Assembly (NCBI GenBank): GCA_022545705.1
Contig: JACZQN010000003.1
Location: 1 to 56,598 of the forward strand
Length of the DNA stretch: 56,598 nucleotides
DNA from: Nitrospirota bacterium
GTDB lineage: Bacteria; Nitrospirota; Nitrospiria; Nitrospirales; Nitrospiraceae
Direction of reading: 5' to 3'
Within the stretch, counting starts at the first letter, position 1; each line of letters starts with the position of its first letter. The position numbers are program-made. Below are positions 12,001 through 18,000 of this stretch, piece by piece.

Positions 12001-15000
12001 TCCTGGTCGAGAATCTCAGCGCTTCCGCCATATTGCCCCCTTCCTTTTGCAGCGTTGCCAATTGCCCCTTTGCTATAATGCGCGCTCGGTCCCCTGCTGT
12101 CGAATCGGAGGTGGGATGCCCGAACCGAGTGGACTCGCAGCGTTTGCGGGAGAGGTTTGCCCGGGGATCTTTCGATTCACGATGCATGATGACCGAATCG
12201 ACTTTGAAAGTGATTCTTATATCGTGGTGGAGAACGGCCGCGTGATCCTTCTGGACCCGCTCCCGATTGAGGATCGGGAACTCACCCAGCGGGGAACAGT
12301 CGAGGCCATTTGTCTCACAGCTTCATGCCATGAGCGCTCCGCCTGGCGCTATCGCGCCGAGCTGAAGGTGCCCGTGTACGCACCCCGGGGAGGAGTGGAT
12401 TTCGAGGAGCCACCTGACCGCTGGTACCAGGCGGGCGATCGGTTGCCGTGCGGCTTGCTCGCCGTGCATGCACCCGGTCCGACTGAGGCGCATTACGCCT
12501 TCCACCTTGCGCGGGAGAGCGGCGTGGTGTTCTGCGCGGATCTTCTGACGAATGCGGAAGGCACAGGTCTGTCCTTCGTCCCCGATGTCTATCAGGACGA
12601 GCCGGCACGCACCCGTGAAAGTGTCCGCCGGCTGCTGGACCTGCGCTTTGAGATCCTGTGCTCGAACCACGGTGAGCCCGTCATTGGCGGCGCCAAGGAA
12701 GCGATTGCTCGGGCGCTGGCTCGGGATCAGACGCGGCCGCCTTCCTAGCCTCTGGTACGTGGATATCGTTAAACCCACCTCGACTCACCCCGACACGATC
12801 TTCTGCTCCGAAGATCTCCTGAAAGATAGTCACGACCTCCTCAAAGATTTGCAGACCACTCCATTCAGCGTATCCAGCGCGTTCCAATAAACGCGGGAGG
12901 TCTGTTTGCTTCGTGCGTTGGCCATGGGGGCTGCCATCACCAAGCAGATAATGATCGAGGATCACGCGATCGCACACGGCCTCGAGATCCCGGGCGAATT
13001 TCCGTGGATCATCCAACGGTAACAGGGGACTGACCGTCGCCACGGTGGGCAGGCCTGCAGCTTTTAACGTTCGAAGCGCCTCGATACGCACCGCGGGCGA
13101 GTAGGCCTGGGAGGGAAAACCCTGGGGGAGCGTCGGCTTGTCGGTTTCGACCGTGATGTTGATCTGTACGCGGCAGCGCCGGTGCAACTTGGTGAGAAGC
13201 GGCAGGTCATCCACGACCAGCGGAGTGTGCGACTGAATCACCAAGAGGTCCGGCGGCCGGCTCAACATTTCTTCCAGGAGACTGCGGGTCCGCCGAGCCG
13301 TTCGTTCCTGCGGCGGGTAGGGCTCGGTCACGCTCGACATGAAGATCCTGAGGGGTTTGGGCGCTCCGCGGAGTGGGTGCTTGAGCCGATCGTACTGGGC
13401 GCGATAGCTCTCGAGGAAACCTGTTTTGACATCCAAAAAGCTGCCCCACGCGCGGCCGCGAGTATGATGCGGATTCCATTGCGCATAGCAATACAACCCG
13501 CAGAGCGAATTGCCAAGGGCGCATCCCCGATAGAGGTTAATCGTATGGGTGAACCCGTCCCCAAGAAAACCCCCAGTGGGGTTGAGCACATGTCGGGATG
13601 TAATGGGCTCGATCCTCATGGGCACCCAAGGGCAAATTCTGCACGAGAGCCGCCTGGCGGCGCAAGCGATTCCGAACGTTTCATACTATACTATGCCGCG
13701 TAGCAGCCGAAGTGCGCTGGGTCGGACCTGGACCAAAAACGCACACGCGGGTTCCGTATGGCTCTAAACACACCGCACAAACCGACGTTGTCTGACCGCT
13801 GGCAAGACGAGGCCAGGCGGGTTGCGCGAGGGGTTCGCCTGCGGGTGCTGGGTCATACGCTCAAGAACAACGGGGGTTACTTGAGCCAGGCCTGCTCGTC
13901 AGCCGAGATCCTCGCTACATTGTACACCGGCGTCATGAAGCTGGGCCCAAGTCAGGCGCCGCCTGTGCCTCTTCCGTTTCCGGGATCACCGGGTCCACAC
14001 ACTCCTCAGTGTTTCACAGGCGCGCTCTATAACGGTCCCAGAGCACCCGACCTGGATCGCTTCTTGTTCTCGCCTGCCCATTATGCCCTTCCCCTCTATG
14101 CCACACTCATCGAGGTCGGCCGGCTGGCGCCTGAGGCCCTAGACCAATTCAACCAGGACGGCAGTACGGTCGAAATGATCGGGGCTGAGCATTCGCCGGG
14201 GATGGAAACCACCACCGGCTCACTTTCGCAGGCGCTGAGTCAGGCCGGAGGGGTCGCCCTGGCACGTAGACTGCGCGGCGAAACCGGCCGCGTCTGGGTG
14301 TTCATGTCCGATGGCGAGTTGCAAGAAGGCCAAACTTGGGAGGCGTTTGCCGCGCTGATTTTTTATAAGCTGGACAATCTCGGGGTGTACGTCGATGCCA
14401 ACGGGCAGCAGTGCGACGGCCGGACGGAGACCGTGATGGGGGTCGAACCGATCCGGGAGCGACTGGAAGCCTTCGGGGCTCGGGTGGTGGAGGTTGACGG
14501 CCACAATCCTGATTCACTGGCCGCGGCCGCAGCGACACATCCGCGCGGGCAAGGGCAACCGCTCGTTGTACTGGGGCGCACCGATCCCTGCCGGGGTATC
14601 GAGTTGCTCCGGAGCCGTGCGCCGAAACTCCACTACCTGCGGTTGAAGAACGACGAAGAACGGAAGGCGTATCAAGAGGCTTTCGCGCGGTTGCAACAGG
14701 AGGTTCGATGATCGAGGTCATCTCCCGCCCGCACGCGAGAAACCTTGTCCGCTGGGCGCAGGACAAACCGGAGGTCATCGTGCTGTCGGCCGACCTGACA
14801 GGGTCGTGCGAGGCAGACGATTTCCAGAAGGCGTTTCCGGACCGATTTTTCTCGATGGGCATGGCGGAGCAGAACATGATGGGCTTTGCCGCTGGTCTGG
14901 CCCGCGAAGGGTTCTTCCCATTCGTGCACACCTTTGCAGTGTTCCTCTATCGTCGGCCATACGATCAACTGGCCATGTCCGTCGCGTATCCCAACCTGCC

Positions 15001-18000
15001 GGTCCGTTTGCTGGGCTTTCTCCCCGGCCTGATTTCGCCCGGCGGCGTCACTCACCAGGCCATCGAGGACATCGCGGTGCTGCGCGCGCTGCCAAACATG
15101 ACGATCCTCGAGTGCGGGGATGCGACGGAGGTCGAATCCGTCCTCGACCTAGCACAGGGCGTTCATGGACCGGTATACGTGCGCATGCTACGAGGTGAGG
15201 TGCCGAGACTGTTCAGCCCTGATGAGCCCCTCCGGTTGGGCGAAGCCCGGGTGCTGACTCGGGGCACGGACGTGACCATCCTGTCTTCCGGGATCTGCAC
15301 CGAAGAGGCCCTGCGAGCGACGGCCTCACTCCGCGGTCGCGGGGTGTCAATCACACACCTGCACGTTTCCACGCTAAAACCCTTTACCGACACGACCATT
15401 GTGGAAACGGCCGCGTCGGCGCGCTACGGCGTCATCACCCTTGAAAATCACAGCATCCTTGGCGGATTGGGGACCGCGACAGCCGAAGCGATGGCAGAAG
15501 CGGGGCTCCAGCAGAAATTGGTGCGCCTCGGACTCAAGGATACCTTCGCGCACGGCGGCAGCAGACCGTACCTCATGAAGCAGTATGGGCTCGACGCGCT
15601 CTCGCTTGTGGGTGCGGTTGAGCAGCTGCTCGGTGCTTCGTTCAACCTGACCGAGGCAGATCTGGCCTCGATTCGGCTCGATACGGTTCACCCCAGATCG
15701 AATGTGGAGGCCCTCTAAATGACTCCTTCTGGGCCGAAGGATCTTTCCGGGCAGCGATTTTCAGTCCGGTACCATCTGACCGGCACAGAGACCGCCGCGC
15801 AGGCCACGGCCGCCAGCATCTGTCGTGAACAGACGGTCGAAGTGCCGGACGAGGTGATTCCACTCGGGCCGATTCGCGAGCAGATCGTAGGCCGCCTTGA
15901 AGCGTTTCACCGCGTGGCGTCCGGCGCCTTCGAAGCCACGATCAGCTTCGCCGCCGAGACAGCGGGGACCGAGTTCACGCAACTGCTGAACGTCATCTTC
16001 GGGAACATCAGCCTGCAACCAGGCATTCGAGTGGCGCGGGTGGATGTTCCTGCGAGCGGCTTCTCTTGGCTCAAGGGACCGCGCTTCGGACGAAAGGGGA
16101 TTCGCACCCGATTGGCCGTGCCCGACCGTCCGCTCCTGTGCACCGCAGTCAAACCGATGGGCCTGTCGGCGAAGGAATTGGCTGACCTGGCTTACCAGTT
16201 CGCTCTGGGTGGCATTGACATTATCAAGGATGACCATGGCCTGGCTGATCAGCCATTTTGCCTGTTTGAGGAGCGAGTGACGCGCTGTGCCGAAGCCGTG
16301 GCACGGGCCAATCGCGAGACCGGACGCCATTGTCTGTACGCGCCGAATGTAACCGGCCCTGCCGGGGTATCCATCCAGCGGGCGCTCTTCGCCAAACAGG
16401 CGGGAGCTGGCGGCCTGTTAATCAGTCCTGGACTGACCGGCTGGGACACCATGCGCCAGCTTGCCGAGGACGAGCGCCTAGTGCTTCCGGTCATCATGCA
16501 CCCGGCGCTGCTGGGCAGTTTTGCCACTGATCCTCATAGCGGGCTGTCGCACTACACGCTGTTCGGCCAGCTTCCGCGCCTGGCCGGTGCTGACGCCTGC
16601 ATCTTTCCAACCTATGGCAGCCGTTTTTACTTCAGCCGGGATGACTGTCGAAGTATTGCGGAGGGGGCCAATGATGAATTCGGAGCGTACCGACGAACCT
16701 TCCCGACTCCCGGCGGAGGGCTCACGTTCGAGCGGCTGCCGGAGCTGATCGAGTTTTATGGCCCGGACGTCATCTTGCTCATTGGCGGGGCCTTGCGCCA
16801 GTACGGGCCGGATCTCGTCGCCAACTGTCAGCAGTTCCATCGGTGTGTATCCCGTACTCCCGCCGTAAAGGCTGGTTGACGCCTGGAGGGCCATTCTGTT
16901 CCCCATCTGCCTCACCCGTCACTGATGCCCTGCCAGACACCCGGACAGTGCATGGCCTCCATGGCCTGATCGAGCTGGATAGTCCTTCCTATCTGAGAAT
17001 CATTCCTCTTGACTCCAGCCCGGAGCACCGTGTAGCGTGATGCCTCGACCTTATCCACGGAGGTCGGCACGAGTCTCATGATGAAAGCTATCAGGAAAGT
17101 AAGCACTCTGAAGACCCGAACAGCGAGGTTATCTCCTGAAGAGATTGGCCGGACATTTCGCGAGCGAGGATTAAAGGTCACGCCCCAGCGCACGGCCATC
17201 TACCAAACGCTGATCGAAAGTCCGGTCCATCCCACCGCAGACCATCTTTACACGCAGGTCAAGCGTGTGTATCCGATGCTCTCGCTGAACACGGTCTACC
17301 ACACCCTGGGAGTTCTCCGAAATGCCGGCCTCACCCATGAGGTGAACTACTGGCACGATCGCTCCCAGTTTGATGGCAATATAAATCCGCATCACCATCT
17401 GATCTGCCTCGGGTGCCGAATGATCCAGGATCTTACAGACGCATCCCTGGATCGTCTGACGGTTTCGAGCGTGCGGCGGACCGGGTTCGAGGTGACCGGG
17501 CATCAGGTGGAATTTTATGGATACTGTACCCGCTGCCGCCGGCGCAACCCGGCCGCCAAGCGGAAAAGAAAGGAGTGGAGCGTATGAACTCGCAGGTGTC
17601 TCTGCGTCAGGGAGTCATGCTCATCGTTGCCGTCGGAATCTTGTTGTTCGCGAGTCCTCAGAGGATCCTGAGCGAGGAACCGAACCTTGAGCTCGGTCAA
17701 TTGCCAAACGTCCCGATCCCCGCCCACAACCTGCAATATGACACCAAAGTGGAACTGGGGAAGCTGCTCTTTTTCGACCCTCGTCTCTCGAAGGATAACA
17801 GCGTTAGTTGCGCCAGCTGTCACGTGCCGGAGGCCGGCTTTGCAGACCCCCGCCAGTTTTCCCTCGGCGTGGGCGGGAAGAAGGGCGGGCGCAACGCCCC
17901 TACAGCCCTGAATGCCGCGTATAACCACGTGCAGTTCTGGGATGGCCGCGCGGGATCGTTGGAGGAGCAGGCGCTGGGGCCGATCCAAAATCCTATCGAG

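What a model noticed while it worked through the whole genome (the two positions that open the first line are those of the whole stretch)
13758..16879. Altered split transketolase replaces the cupin methylsulfurylase beside a RubisCO-like protein: new branch of MTA salvag [...]
Two transketolase-half genes and a R. rubrum-type RubisCO-like protein (RLP) form one operon, and across related RLP loci of many phyla this pair and the cupin MTXu-5P methylsulfurylase exclude each other. The TPP enzyme is the missing next step for the RLP product: it cleaves 1-methylthio-xylulose-5-P (or DXP from 5'-deoxyadenosine), most boldly as a phosphoketolase-like enzyme that expels methanethiol and yields an acetyl unit plus G3P. 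That would be an undescribed, widespread third fate for RLP products in SAM by-product salvage and a new TPP chemistry.
Evidence so far: g01270 (317 aa), g01271 (336 aa), g01272 RLP (386 aa, 38% to R. rubrum MTRu-1P isomerase; call 24). Of the best 80 RLP loci in GTDB genomes (Chloroflexota, Bacillota, Spirochaetota, an Asgard archaeon and others; call 163) 58 carry the orthologous pair directly upstream (55-75% identity), 11 carry a cupin, 0 carry both, 11 neither. The cupin matches Rru_A2000, PDB 3jzv, E 7e-43. RLPs of both contexts are intermixed in a small tree. mtnA-like and mtnK-like ORFs lie in 6 of the transketolase loci each. Against solved transketolases the GHP motif reads GY and LQGHP reads VEMIG, both kept in >=90% of 56 homologs; that the lost His contacts the donor C1-OH is recalled. 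mtnP is in this genome; mtn [...]
(Added by a program. Inside this text positions count along the whole contig: contig position 1 is position 1 of the stretch shown here. "Call 12" and the like, gene names such as g00115 and contig names such as C1 are that model's own, and its searches are not shown. The text may have been shortened before it was handed on; [...] marks where a part breaks off. The agent that wrote the report below was given it as the finding of a first reader that could run no searches.)

Follow-up and report, generated by a model that had tools for sequence, protein, structure and literature searches.

The report
Remodelled transketolase partnering a RuBisCO-like isomerase
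Two genes for an altered, thiamine-dependent transketolase relative are packed directly in front of a RuBisCO-like gene, an arrangement repeated in many bacterial phyla in place of the known sulfur-releasing enzyme, and they likely form an undescribed route that would split a waste sugar of S-adenosylmethionine chemistry into a triose phosphate and a two-carbon piece.

Summary
The three genes are tightly packed. Of 80 genomes carrying the transketolase-like N half, 73 hold the orthologous RLP (50 in the locus, 23 elsewhere), none holds a methylsulfurylase-type cupin, and 78 also have an ordinary transketolase. An independent metagenome set gave 41 pair, 9 cupin, 0 both, 30 neither. Pair-linked and cupin-linked RLPs share one active-site signature (80/96, 11/11). 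Stand-alone and kinase-linked RLPs differ (0/54, 0/5), so most 'neither' cases look like other enzymes. The pair keeps its thiamine-binding and catalytic residues but has lost two donor-site histidines present in 24/24 control transketolases. Best reading: C2-C3 cleavage of 1-methylthio-xylulose-5-P to G3P (about 70% for the step; about 40% with methanethiol expelled). A strict phosphoketolase is weakened: acetate kinase was not found in 28/80 genomes, and one lineage puts the pair in a microcompartment operon with an aldehyde dehydrogenase, pointing to aldehyde release. This genome lacks detectable mtnA and metY. Eight literature searches found no description. The scan noted this pairing before on other DNA (six earlier findings).

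The parts
13758..14711 (+). Transketolase-like N subunit (diphosphate-binding domain), 317 aa. Keeps D185/G186/E187, N215, H108, H292. Tyr41 and hydrophobic M140/I141 replace two conserved His; invariant E139 and H145; prolines at the two diphosphate-binding Lys positions of 6yak.
   Evidence: AlphaFold model matches 6yak
14708..15718 (+). Transketolase-like C subunit (pyrimidine-binding and C-terminal domains), 336 aa. Keeps catalytic E54, F79, H116 and the likely phosphate site R7/S33/R162; Leu105 and Gly112 stand where canonical enzymes have His and Asp.
15719..16879 (+). Form IV RuBisCO-like protein, 386 aa, KDDH motif; active-site signature identical to cupin-linked RLPs (predicted 5-methylthioribulose-1-P 1,3-isomerase)
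12681..13625 (-). Divergently transcribed radical-SAM-like gene (PA0069/Rv2578c-like, below cut-offs); possible 5'-deoxyadenosine source; link to the operon not shown
   Evidence: close homologs (74-75%) near the RLP in L003 and G101

Best explanation
The operon encodes a RuBisCO-like protein predicted to isomerise 5-methylthioribulose-1-phosphate to 1-methylthio-xylulose-5-phosphate, and a two-subunit thiamine-diphosphate enzyme that likely cleaves that product between C2 and C3, giving glyceraldehyde-3-phosphate and likely expelling methanethiol from the thiamine-bound two-carbon piece. Shown: gene packing, genome-wide co-occurrence with the RLP, exclusion of the cupin, shared RLP signature, retained thiamine-binding residues, loss of the donor-site histidines. 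Inferred: MtnP or MtnK plus MtnA supply the substrate. ThDP adds to the C2 ketone and the C2-C3 bond breaks. The enamine carries a beta-thiomethyl group, which leaves as methanethiol to give acetyl-ThDP, released as acetate or another acyl product, not necessarily acetyl-phosphate. Where MetY/MetX exist, methanethiol would be recaptured as methionine; in this genome, which lacks detectable MetY, the route would be disposal. If the RLP also makes DXP from 5-deoxyribulose-1-P (untested), there is no leaving group and the same enzyme would release acetaldehyde. Odds: about 0.7 for C2-C3 cleavage of the RLP product by whatever ending, about 0.4 for methanethiol expulsion.
For: RLP ortholog in 73 of 80 carrier genomes. 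In an even sample of 401 genomes of one Chloroflexota class, all 6 N-half carriers are among the 25 RLP carriers (P about 1e-5 without the two genomes already known, kinship not corrected). No cupin ortholog in 80 carriers: best 55 bits against 135-149 for true ones. Signature shared by 11/11 cupin-linked and 80/96 pair-linked RLPs, with 7 partner changes on a 107-tip tree. mtnA in 18 and mtnK in 14 of 121 pair loci. metY/metX-metW directly upstream in 5 Planctomycete loci (metY seen in 4), the same layout as cupin locus L152. 22 of 80 carriers have no class II aldolase match, so no MtnB or DHAP-shunt aldolase. 24 of 80, including all 17 Chloroflexota, have no Dxr match, so DXP is unlikely to be the end product there. 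78 of 80 keep an ordinary transketolase. The His of LQGHP is the residue replaced by Phe/Tyr in DXS (PMC13663882 whole text; PMC7661550 passages); here it is hydrophobic in 107/107 and His in 24/24 controls.
Against: No assay. The own genome (94.6% complete) shows no mtnA, metY, class II aldolase or canonical transketolase, and only an acetate kinase remnant. Acetate kinase not found in 28 of 80. The metY link is one clade; three further same-strand PLP enzymes are below all cut-offs. The microcompartment operon points to an aldehyde. mtnA in 76 of 80 genomes is not discriminating: 5 of 5 relatives without the pair also have it. In the 401-genome sample 16 of 25 RLP genomes have neither partner, a few of them with the full signature, and with 6 and 3 carriers, zero overlap there is expected by chance. 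The loop holding the His100-equivalent has pLDDT under 50, so its register rests on sequence alignment only.
Confidence: 0.42

Rival explanations
1. Same substrate and same C2-C3 cleavage, but the enamine is protonated and an aldehyde is released: methylthioacetaldehyde from the methylthio sugar, acetaldehyde from DXP. The route would then be a thiamine-based equivalent of the bifunctional DHAP shunt.
For: L104 and L130 hold EutN, acylating acetaldehyde dehydrogenase (543 and 563 bits, cut-off 620), BMC-H, BMC-T and 1-2 more EutN directly upstream on the same strand, with no deoxyribose aldolase among the listed ORFs. SPU microcompartments use DERA to make G3P plus acetaldehyde (PMC12747264 passages). 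Acetate kinase not found in 28/80. Invariant Glu139 could be the acid (inference). One mechanism would serve both substrates. Many loci are import-and-catabolism type (ABC permease 9, mtnK 14 of 121).
Against: The two BMC loci are one lineage (dehydrogenases 77% identical). It explains the exclusion of the sulfur-releasing cupin and the metY-metX layout less directly. An aldolase would give similar products more simply, and class II aldolase domains occur in some of the same loci (L038, L159).
Confidence: 0.27
2. A true transketolase with a changed donor: it transfers the methylthio- or methyl-ketol unit to an aldose acceptor such as ribose-5-P, freeing G3P and leaving a longer 1-deoxy or 1-methylthio ketose.
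For: Closest solved relatives are transketolases. Promiscuous transketolase steps occur in 5'-deoxyadenosine salvage of S. elongatus and were proposed for M. jannaschii (PMC8102628 passages).
Against: The acceptor-binding Asp469 equivalent is Gly in 104/104. No conserved downstream gene for the product was seen in 121 loci. The product would be a dead end.
Confidence: 0.1
3. RLP and pair catabolise another sugar (apiose-like or a deoxy sugar) unrelated to SAM by-products.
For: Some loci carry sugar kinases, DhaK/L, RpiB, LsrF-like aldolase, SorC regulators and ABC importers (L128, L159, L233). Related RLPs sit in kinase-driven catabolic operons. mtnA not found in the own genome.
Against: OiaX scores 72 of 700 bits. 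The RLP signature equals that of cupin-linked enzymes and differs from the FGGY-linked clade. The commonest catabolic neighbours are mtnA and mtnK. Most loci have no transporter.
Confidence: 0.13
4. The pair is an ordinary housekeeping transketolase that happens to sit by the RLP, replacing the canonical gene in this genome.
For: It is the only transketolase-like gene found in G000 besides DXS, and likewise in G033.
Against: 78 of 80 carriers have a canonical transketolase as well; two histidines present in 24/24 controls are lost; both assemblies are incomplete.
Confidence: 0.04

Closest known systems
MTA-isoprenoid shunt of Rhodospirillum rubrum and Rhodopseudomonas palustris (MtnP, MtnA, DeepYkr RLP 1,3-isomerase, cupin methylsulfurylase, OAHS sulfhydrylase; PMC5893883, PMC4334135 passages)
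   Same: Same RLP type by active-site signature; mtnP/mtnK, mtnA and sometimes metY-metX nearby; a partner gene that acts on the RLP product.
   Different: No methylsulfurylase cupin in 80 of 80 carriers; a ThDP enzyme instead; no glutathione or other reductant predicted; the sugar would be cleaved rather than reduced to DXP; all 17 Chloroflexota carriers have no Dxr match.
Split-gene transketolase of Carboxydothermus hydrogenoformans (PDB 6yak/6yaj; PMC7661550) and ten split transketolases of PMC13663882
   Same: Two-gene architecture, fold (Foldseek E 2e-19), ThDP and metal ligands, catalytic Glu, His261 and His473 equivalents.
   Different: All ten characterised split enzymes keep the His100 equivalent (PMC13663882); here it is hydrophobic, the GHP His is Tyr, Asp469 is Gly, both diphosphate Lys are Pro, and there is an insert of about 30 residues in the N half.
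Phosphoketolase and sulfoacetaldehyde acetyltransferase (recalled)
   Same: Proposed elimination of a leaving group from the ThDP enamine to give acetyl-ThDP.
   Different: No sequence match to phosphoketolases in Pfam or PDB; acetate kinase not found in 28/80 carriers.
DHAP shunt (MtnP or MtnK, MtnA, class II aldolase; PMC13474568 passages) and SPU microcompartments (DERA plus AldDH; PMC12747264 passages)
   Same: Triose phosphate plus a two-carbon piece from MTA or 5'-deoxyadenosine; a shell operon with aldehyde dehydrogenase in one lineage.
   Different: Uses RLP isomerisation and thiamine-dependent C2-C3 cleavage instead of an aldolase.

Membership tests
Transketolase (EC 2.2.1.1), split type | PP, Pyr and C-terminal domains in transketolase fold | tested here: met
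Transketolase (EC 2.2.1.1), split type | ThDP/metal ligands and catalytic Glu (6yak D148, G149, E150, N178, H70, E55, F80 from PMC7661550) | tested here: met
   D185, G186, E187, N215 107/107; H108 95/107; E54, F79 104/104; the two Lys are Pro
Transketolase (EC 2.2.1.1), split type | Donor-site His100 equivalent and GHP His (His26, numbering recalled) | tested here: not met
   hydrophobic and Tyr in 107/107; His in 24/24 controls
Transketolase (EC 2.2.1.1), split type | Acceptor-site Asp469 equivalent | tested here: not met
   Gly112 in 104/104; several other specialised transketolases in the control set also lack it
Transketolase (EC 2.2.1.1), split type | Glycolaldehyde transfer from xylulose-5-P or hydroxypyruvate | not testable with these tools
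   needs assay
Phosphoketolase (Xfp) | Match to phosphoketolase families or structures | tested here: not met
   no hit in Pfam, NCBIfam or PDB up to E 10 for the N half
Phosphoketolase (Xfp) | Coupling to acetate kinase | tested here: inconclusive
   52 of 80 genomes match, 28 do not; remnant in own genome; incomplete assemblies
DXP synthase | Single chain above the dxs cut-off | tested here: not met
   170 of 466 bits; a separate DXS-like gene lies on C49
DXP synthase | Hydrophobic residue at the His100 position (methyl-ended donor) | tested here: inconclusive
   met by sequence alignment; loop not resolved in the model
DeepYkr RLP, MTRu-1P 1,3-isomerase | Active-site signature of cupin-linked RLPs (E37, S98, A143, KDDH, P297, G334, G356, G357) | tested here: met
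   window identical to 11/11 cupin-linked RLPs; these are themselves isomerases by inference
DeepYkr RLP, MTRu-1P 1,3-isomerase | 1,3-isomerase activity | not testable with these tools
   needs assay; R. rubrum sequence not compared directly
MTA-isoprenoid shunt | Cupin methylsulfurylase in the genome | tested here: not met
MTA-isoprenoid shunt | MtnP and MtnA in the genome | tested here: inconclusive
   mtnP over cut-off; mtnA not found in the 94.6% complete assembly, over cut-off in 76/80 carriers
MtnW enolase, OiaX (apiose) RLP, carboxylating RuBisCO | Score above the curated NCBIfam cut-offs | tested here: not met
   201/409, 164/514, 72/700, 138/497 bits

The most novel reading that the evidence does not exclude
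A widespread family of remodelled split transketolases is a new thiamine enzyme class that cleaves 1-methylthio-xylulose-5-phosphate and expels methanethiol in one active site, without oxygen, glutathione or a nitrogenase-like reductase. This makes a third, carbon-recovering branch of RLP-based SAM by-product salvage. In one Chloroflexota-like lineage the same enzyme is the aldehyde-forming core of an undescribed bacterial microcompartment.
Probability: 0.35. Interest if true: 0.82.

Novelty: new variant of a known kind. Interest (0 to 1): 0.64.

Why it matters
Methylthioadenosine and 5'-deoxyadenosine are universal inhibitory by-products, and the known oxygen-independent routes for them are few. 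Among close relatives of this RLP the pair outnumbers the characterised cupin (41 against 9 loci), across Chloroflexota, Planctomycetota, Chromatiaceae, Bacillota, Spirochaetota, Myxococcota and an Asgard archaeon. Annotations that read such RLPs as isoprenoid shunts, or the pair as plain transketolase, would then be wrong. The family (at least 4924 proteins at E<=1e-60 among 7996 scored; some may be more distant relatives) offers a natural thiamine enzyme for methyl- or thiomethyl-ended ketoses, a specificity engineers have sought by mutating His100. It may be an unrecognised microbial methanethiol source. It is directly testable in cultured, harmless purple sulfur bacteria.

Tried and rejected
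Literature: searches (open-licence PMC and bioRxiv only); eight concerned the pairing or its chemistry, and 44 the split-transketolase background. None described the pairing; 'transketolase' occurs 0 times in the main text of PMC5893883, PMC6302742, PMC4334135, PMC13474568, PMC10663253, PMC10986504 and PMC12747264. Not read: Erb 2012, Warlick 2012, Imker 2008, Tabita 2007, North 2020, Carter 2018, Tonoli 2025, Sutter 2021. No supplements were opened; genome-neighbourhood figures there could mention the pair. Promoter and terminator scan: nothing above chance. Expression: no RNA holder listed; two guessed-RNA runs gave only scattered short contigs. Synteny check for the missing mtnA and canonical transketolase in G000: flanking genes were not conserved enough to tell loss from assembly gap. 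AlphaFold of the N half alone left residues 135-153 unresolved; the C half model was not searched further. Atlas searches gave only generic names. No complex prediction was run, since no binding claim is made. Aldehyde dehydrogenase content of the own genome was not obtained. Apiose-type and MtnW-type RLP rejected on cut-offs. Housekeeping role rejected.

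
Full report
Observation. The three ORFs are at the stated coordinates, overlapping or abutting on the + strand. 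They are a transketolase N half, a transketolase C half and a form IV RuBisCO-like protein (RLP). Closest solved relatives are the split transketolase of C. hydrogenoformans and RLP 3qfw; the N-half model has the transketolase fold. The closest database relatives are labelled uncultured Nitrospira, and the stretch occurs in sediment metagenomes. Contigs of two such runs cover all 30 bins of the region.

Coupling to the RLP. A GTDB scan with the N half found 445 relatives; the best 80 were kept. The C half is in 71 of the 80 loci and the RLP in 50, mostly within 200 bases of the C half. For the 30 loci without it, 23 genomes hold the ortholog elsewhere (E<1e-100), 2 hold a piece at a contig end and 5 show none. 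In an even sample of 401 genomes from the class of G036, 6 carry the N half and 25 the RLP, and all 6 are among the 25. 78 of 80 carriers have a second, canonical-scoring transketolase, so the pair is an extra, specialised enzyme.

Exclusion of the cupin. A metagenome scan with the RLP found 443 relatives; the best 80 gave 41 pair, 9 cupin, 0 both, 30 neither, half of the last too short upstream to judge. The cupin matches Rru_A2000. Genome-wide, none of the 80 carriers has an ortholog: 15 have weak cupins of at most 55 bits, against 148-149 bits in three RLP-cupin genomes. The carriers are assemblies of unstated completeness and are not independent. A different small cupin (EutQ-like, PF05899) follows the C half in 10 gammaproteobacterial loci (9 Chromatiaceae by record title) that lack an adjacent RLP; its role is open.

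The 'neither' class. In the 401-genome sample 16 of 25 RLP genomes have neither partner. In the window's own order 120 of 401 genomes hold a related RLP (the tally includes one unpublished genome, G875, which no other claim uses). Of 58 loci examined there, 57 have neither gene nearby (one genome is represented twice). Five near-complete relatives lack both genome-wide but have mtnA. An active-site comparison resolves most of this. The signature E37, S98, A143, KDDH, P297, G334, G356, G357 is in 11 of 11 cupin-linked and 80 of 96 pair-linked RLPs, including the window's; the other 16 mostly differ at one position. It is in 0 of 54 stand-alone RLPs of the own order (mostly KDDQ with Arg334) and 0 of 5 FGGY-kinase-linked RLPs (KEDH). 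No position conserved in the pair group differs from the cupin group. The partner changes 7 times on a 107-tip FastTree tree (drawn). A handful of partnerless RLPs keep the full signature (for example L235, L236, L237).

Active site. In 107 N halves and 104 C halves the ThDP and metal ligands listed for 6yak in PMC7661550 (passages) are kept, except two lysines that are prolines. The catalytic Glu and the His261 and His473 equivalents are invariant. The GHP histidine is Tyr in 107 of 107, and the LQGHP motif reads E(M/L)IG; 24 of 24 control transketolases from the same and related genomes have His at both. PMC13663882 (whole main text) names this second His as the main donor-pocket difference from DXS and says all ten split transketolases studied keep it. 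PMC7661550 reports that replacing it by Leu or Phe raises activity with pyruvate. This fits a donor without a C1 hydroxyl. The Asp469 equivalent is Gly and the His461 equivalent Leu, while Arg/Lys7, Ser33 and Arg162 remain as a likely phosphate site (numbering of His26, His261, His461 and the phosphate residues is recalled). The loop 135-153 is unresolved in the model, so its register is from sequence only. A divergent pair at 39-43% identity with Tyr at the same place lies after mtnA and an RLP in L244.

Pathway context. Of 121 pair loci, 18 hold mtnA, 14 mtnK, 9 an ABC permease, 5 a nucleoside phosphorylase. Five Planctomycete loci have metX-metW directly upstream, four of them with metY before it (metY over cut-off in L028), the layout of cupin locus L152. 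In the known shunt this enzyme recaptures methanethiol (PMC5893883 passages). mtnA is over cut-off in 76 of 80 carriers but is common anyway. 22 of 80 have no class II aldolase match. 24 of 80, including all 17 Chloroflexota, have no Dxr match, so DXP would have no isoprenoid use there. Against a strict phosphoketolase, acetate kinase was not found in 28 of 80 genomes (G000-G079). For aldehyde release, L104 and L130 place the pair and RLP at the end of a shell-gene operon with an acylating acetaldehyde dehydrogenase and no deoxyribose aldolase; these are one lineage. Kinase-linked RLPs in L234 and L241 are followed by E1-alpha, E1-beta and E2 genes, a second, independent recruitment of a thiamine enzyme behind this RLP clade.

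This genome. G000 is 2.17 Mb and 94.6% complete. It has mtnP and dxr. No mtnA, class II aldolase, metY, cupin ortholog or canonical transketolase was found, and acetate kinase is a remnant. The two Nitrospira-labelled carriers have mtnA, one directly beside the operon, but no metY or acetate kinase match. Here the route would be disposal rather than methionine recovery, and the missing mtnA is unexplained. The rarity of the pair in the order fits horizontal acquisition; GC content does not differ clearly from neighbours.

Mechanism and odds. Shown: coupling, exclusion, shared RLP type, remodelled donor site. Inferred: C2-C3 cleavage of the RLP product to G3P (about 0.7). For the two-carbon piece I favour elimination of methanethiol to acetyl-ThDP (0.42), because the pair replaces a sulfur-releasing enzyme and inherits its metY context. 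Protonation to an aldehyde is a close rival (0.27), and is the only non-oxidative outcome if DXP is the substrate. Transfer to an acceptor (0.1), another sugar (0.13) and housekeeping (0.04) are less likely.

Novelty. The pair fails the membership test for canonical transketolase, phosphoketolase and DXS, but works, by inference, like an eliminating thiamine lyase. The searches named under Tried and rejected found no description; key subscription papers and all supplements were not seen. The scan noted the same pairing on other DNA six times; those notes are not independent evidence. No earlier finding held all the words of my search for the microcompartment context. Verdict: a real, widespread, apparently undescribed variant of the MTA-isoprenoid shunt with a probable new enzyme activity.

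Noticed in passing
L130:1929-10251 and L104:1923-10258: Bacterial microcompartment operon (EutN, acylating acetaldehyde dehydrogenase, BMC-H, BMC-T, an unknown 136-154 aa protein, further EutN) running into the transketolase-like pair, RLP and a solute-binding protein, with no deoxyribose aldolase: possible undescribed metabolosome type.
   Followed up: partly
L275-L331 (own order): A common stand-alone RLP subfamily with altered active site (mostly KDDQ, Asp37, Arg334); 24 of 58 loci share an adjacent radical-SAM-like gene; no cupin or pair in five near-complete genomes. Function open.
   Followed up: partly
L234:5400-13747, L241, L238, L239, L242: ABC importer, beta-hydroxyacid dehydrogenase, FGGY kinase, RLP with KEDH motif, then (L234, L241) E1-alpha, E1-beta, E2 and a TIM-barrel isomerase: a separate sugar-catabolic RLP module.
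   Followed up: partly
L244:55-4185: mtnA, RLP and a divergent split transketolase (39-43% identity) that shares Tyr41, Pro106, Glu139 and the F-x-PG motif but keeps a His later in the loop.
   Followed up: partly
L017, L040, L047, L062, L064, L065, L067, L068, L075, L080: A small EutQ-like cupin (PF05899) directly after the C half in 10 gammaproteobacterial loci (9 Chromatiaceae by record title) whose RLP lies elsewhere; 8 also have a LarE-like gene (label recalled) on the opposite strand.
   Followed up: no
window 12681-13625 (-): Radical-SAM-like gene divergent from the operon; a 74% homolog is divergent from an RLP with KDDS and no pair in G101 (L293), and a 75% homolog lies downstream of the operon in L003.
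   Followed up: partly
L058:4912-6855: N and C halves fused into one 647-aa ORF.
   Followed up: no
L008, L013, L014, L016, L026, L039, L042, L080: Unrelated genes (DUF5618, Uma2, SEC-C protein, DUF29, TPR protein) inserted between the halves or before the RLP.
   Followed up: no
G000 C53:12614-13375; C21 and C136: Acetate kinase remnant with stops; the start of mtnP repeated at the end of contig C136; no canonical transketolase found although family relatives have one.
   Followed up: partly
L250, L251 (G302, G399): PfkB kinase, RLP, methylsulfurylase-type cupin and DhaK/DhaL in one run in Chloroflexota genomes; fate of DXP there unclear.
   Followed up: no
window 17078-19371: Fur-family regulator, di-haem cytochrome c peroxidase and an aquaporin-like gene (label from sequence only) downstream; no link to the operon seen.
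   Followed up: no
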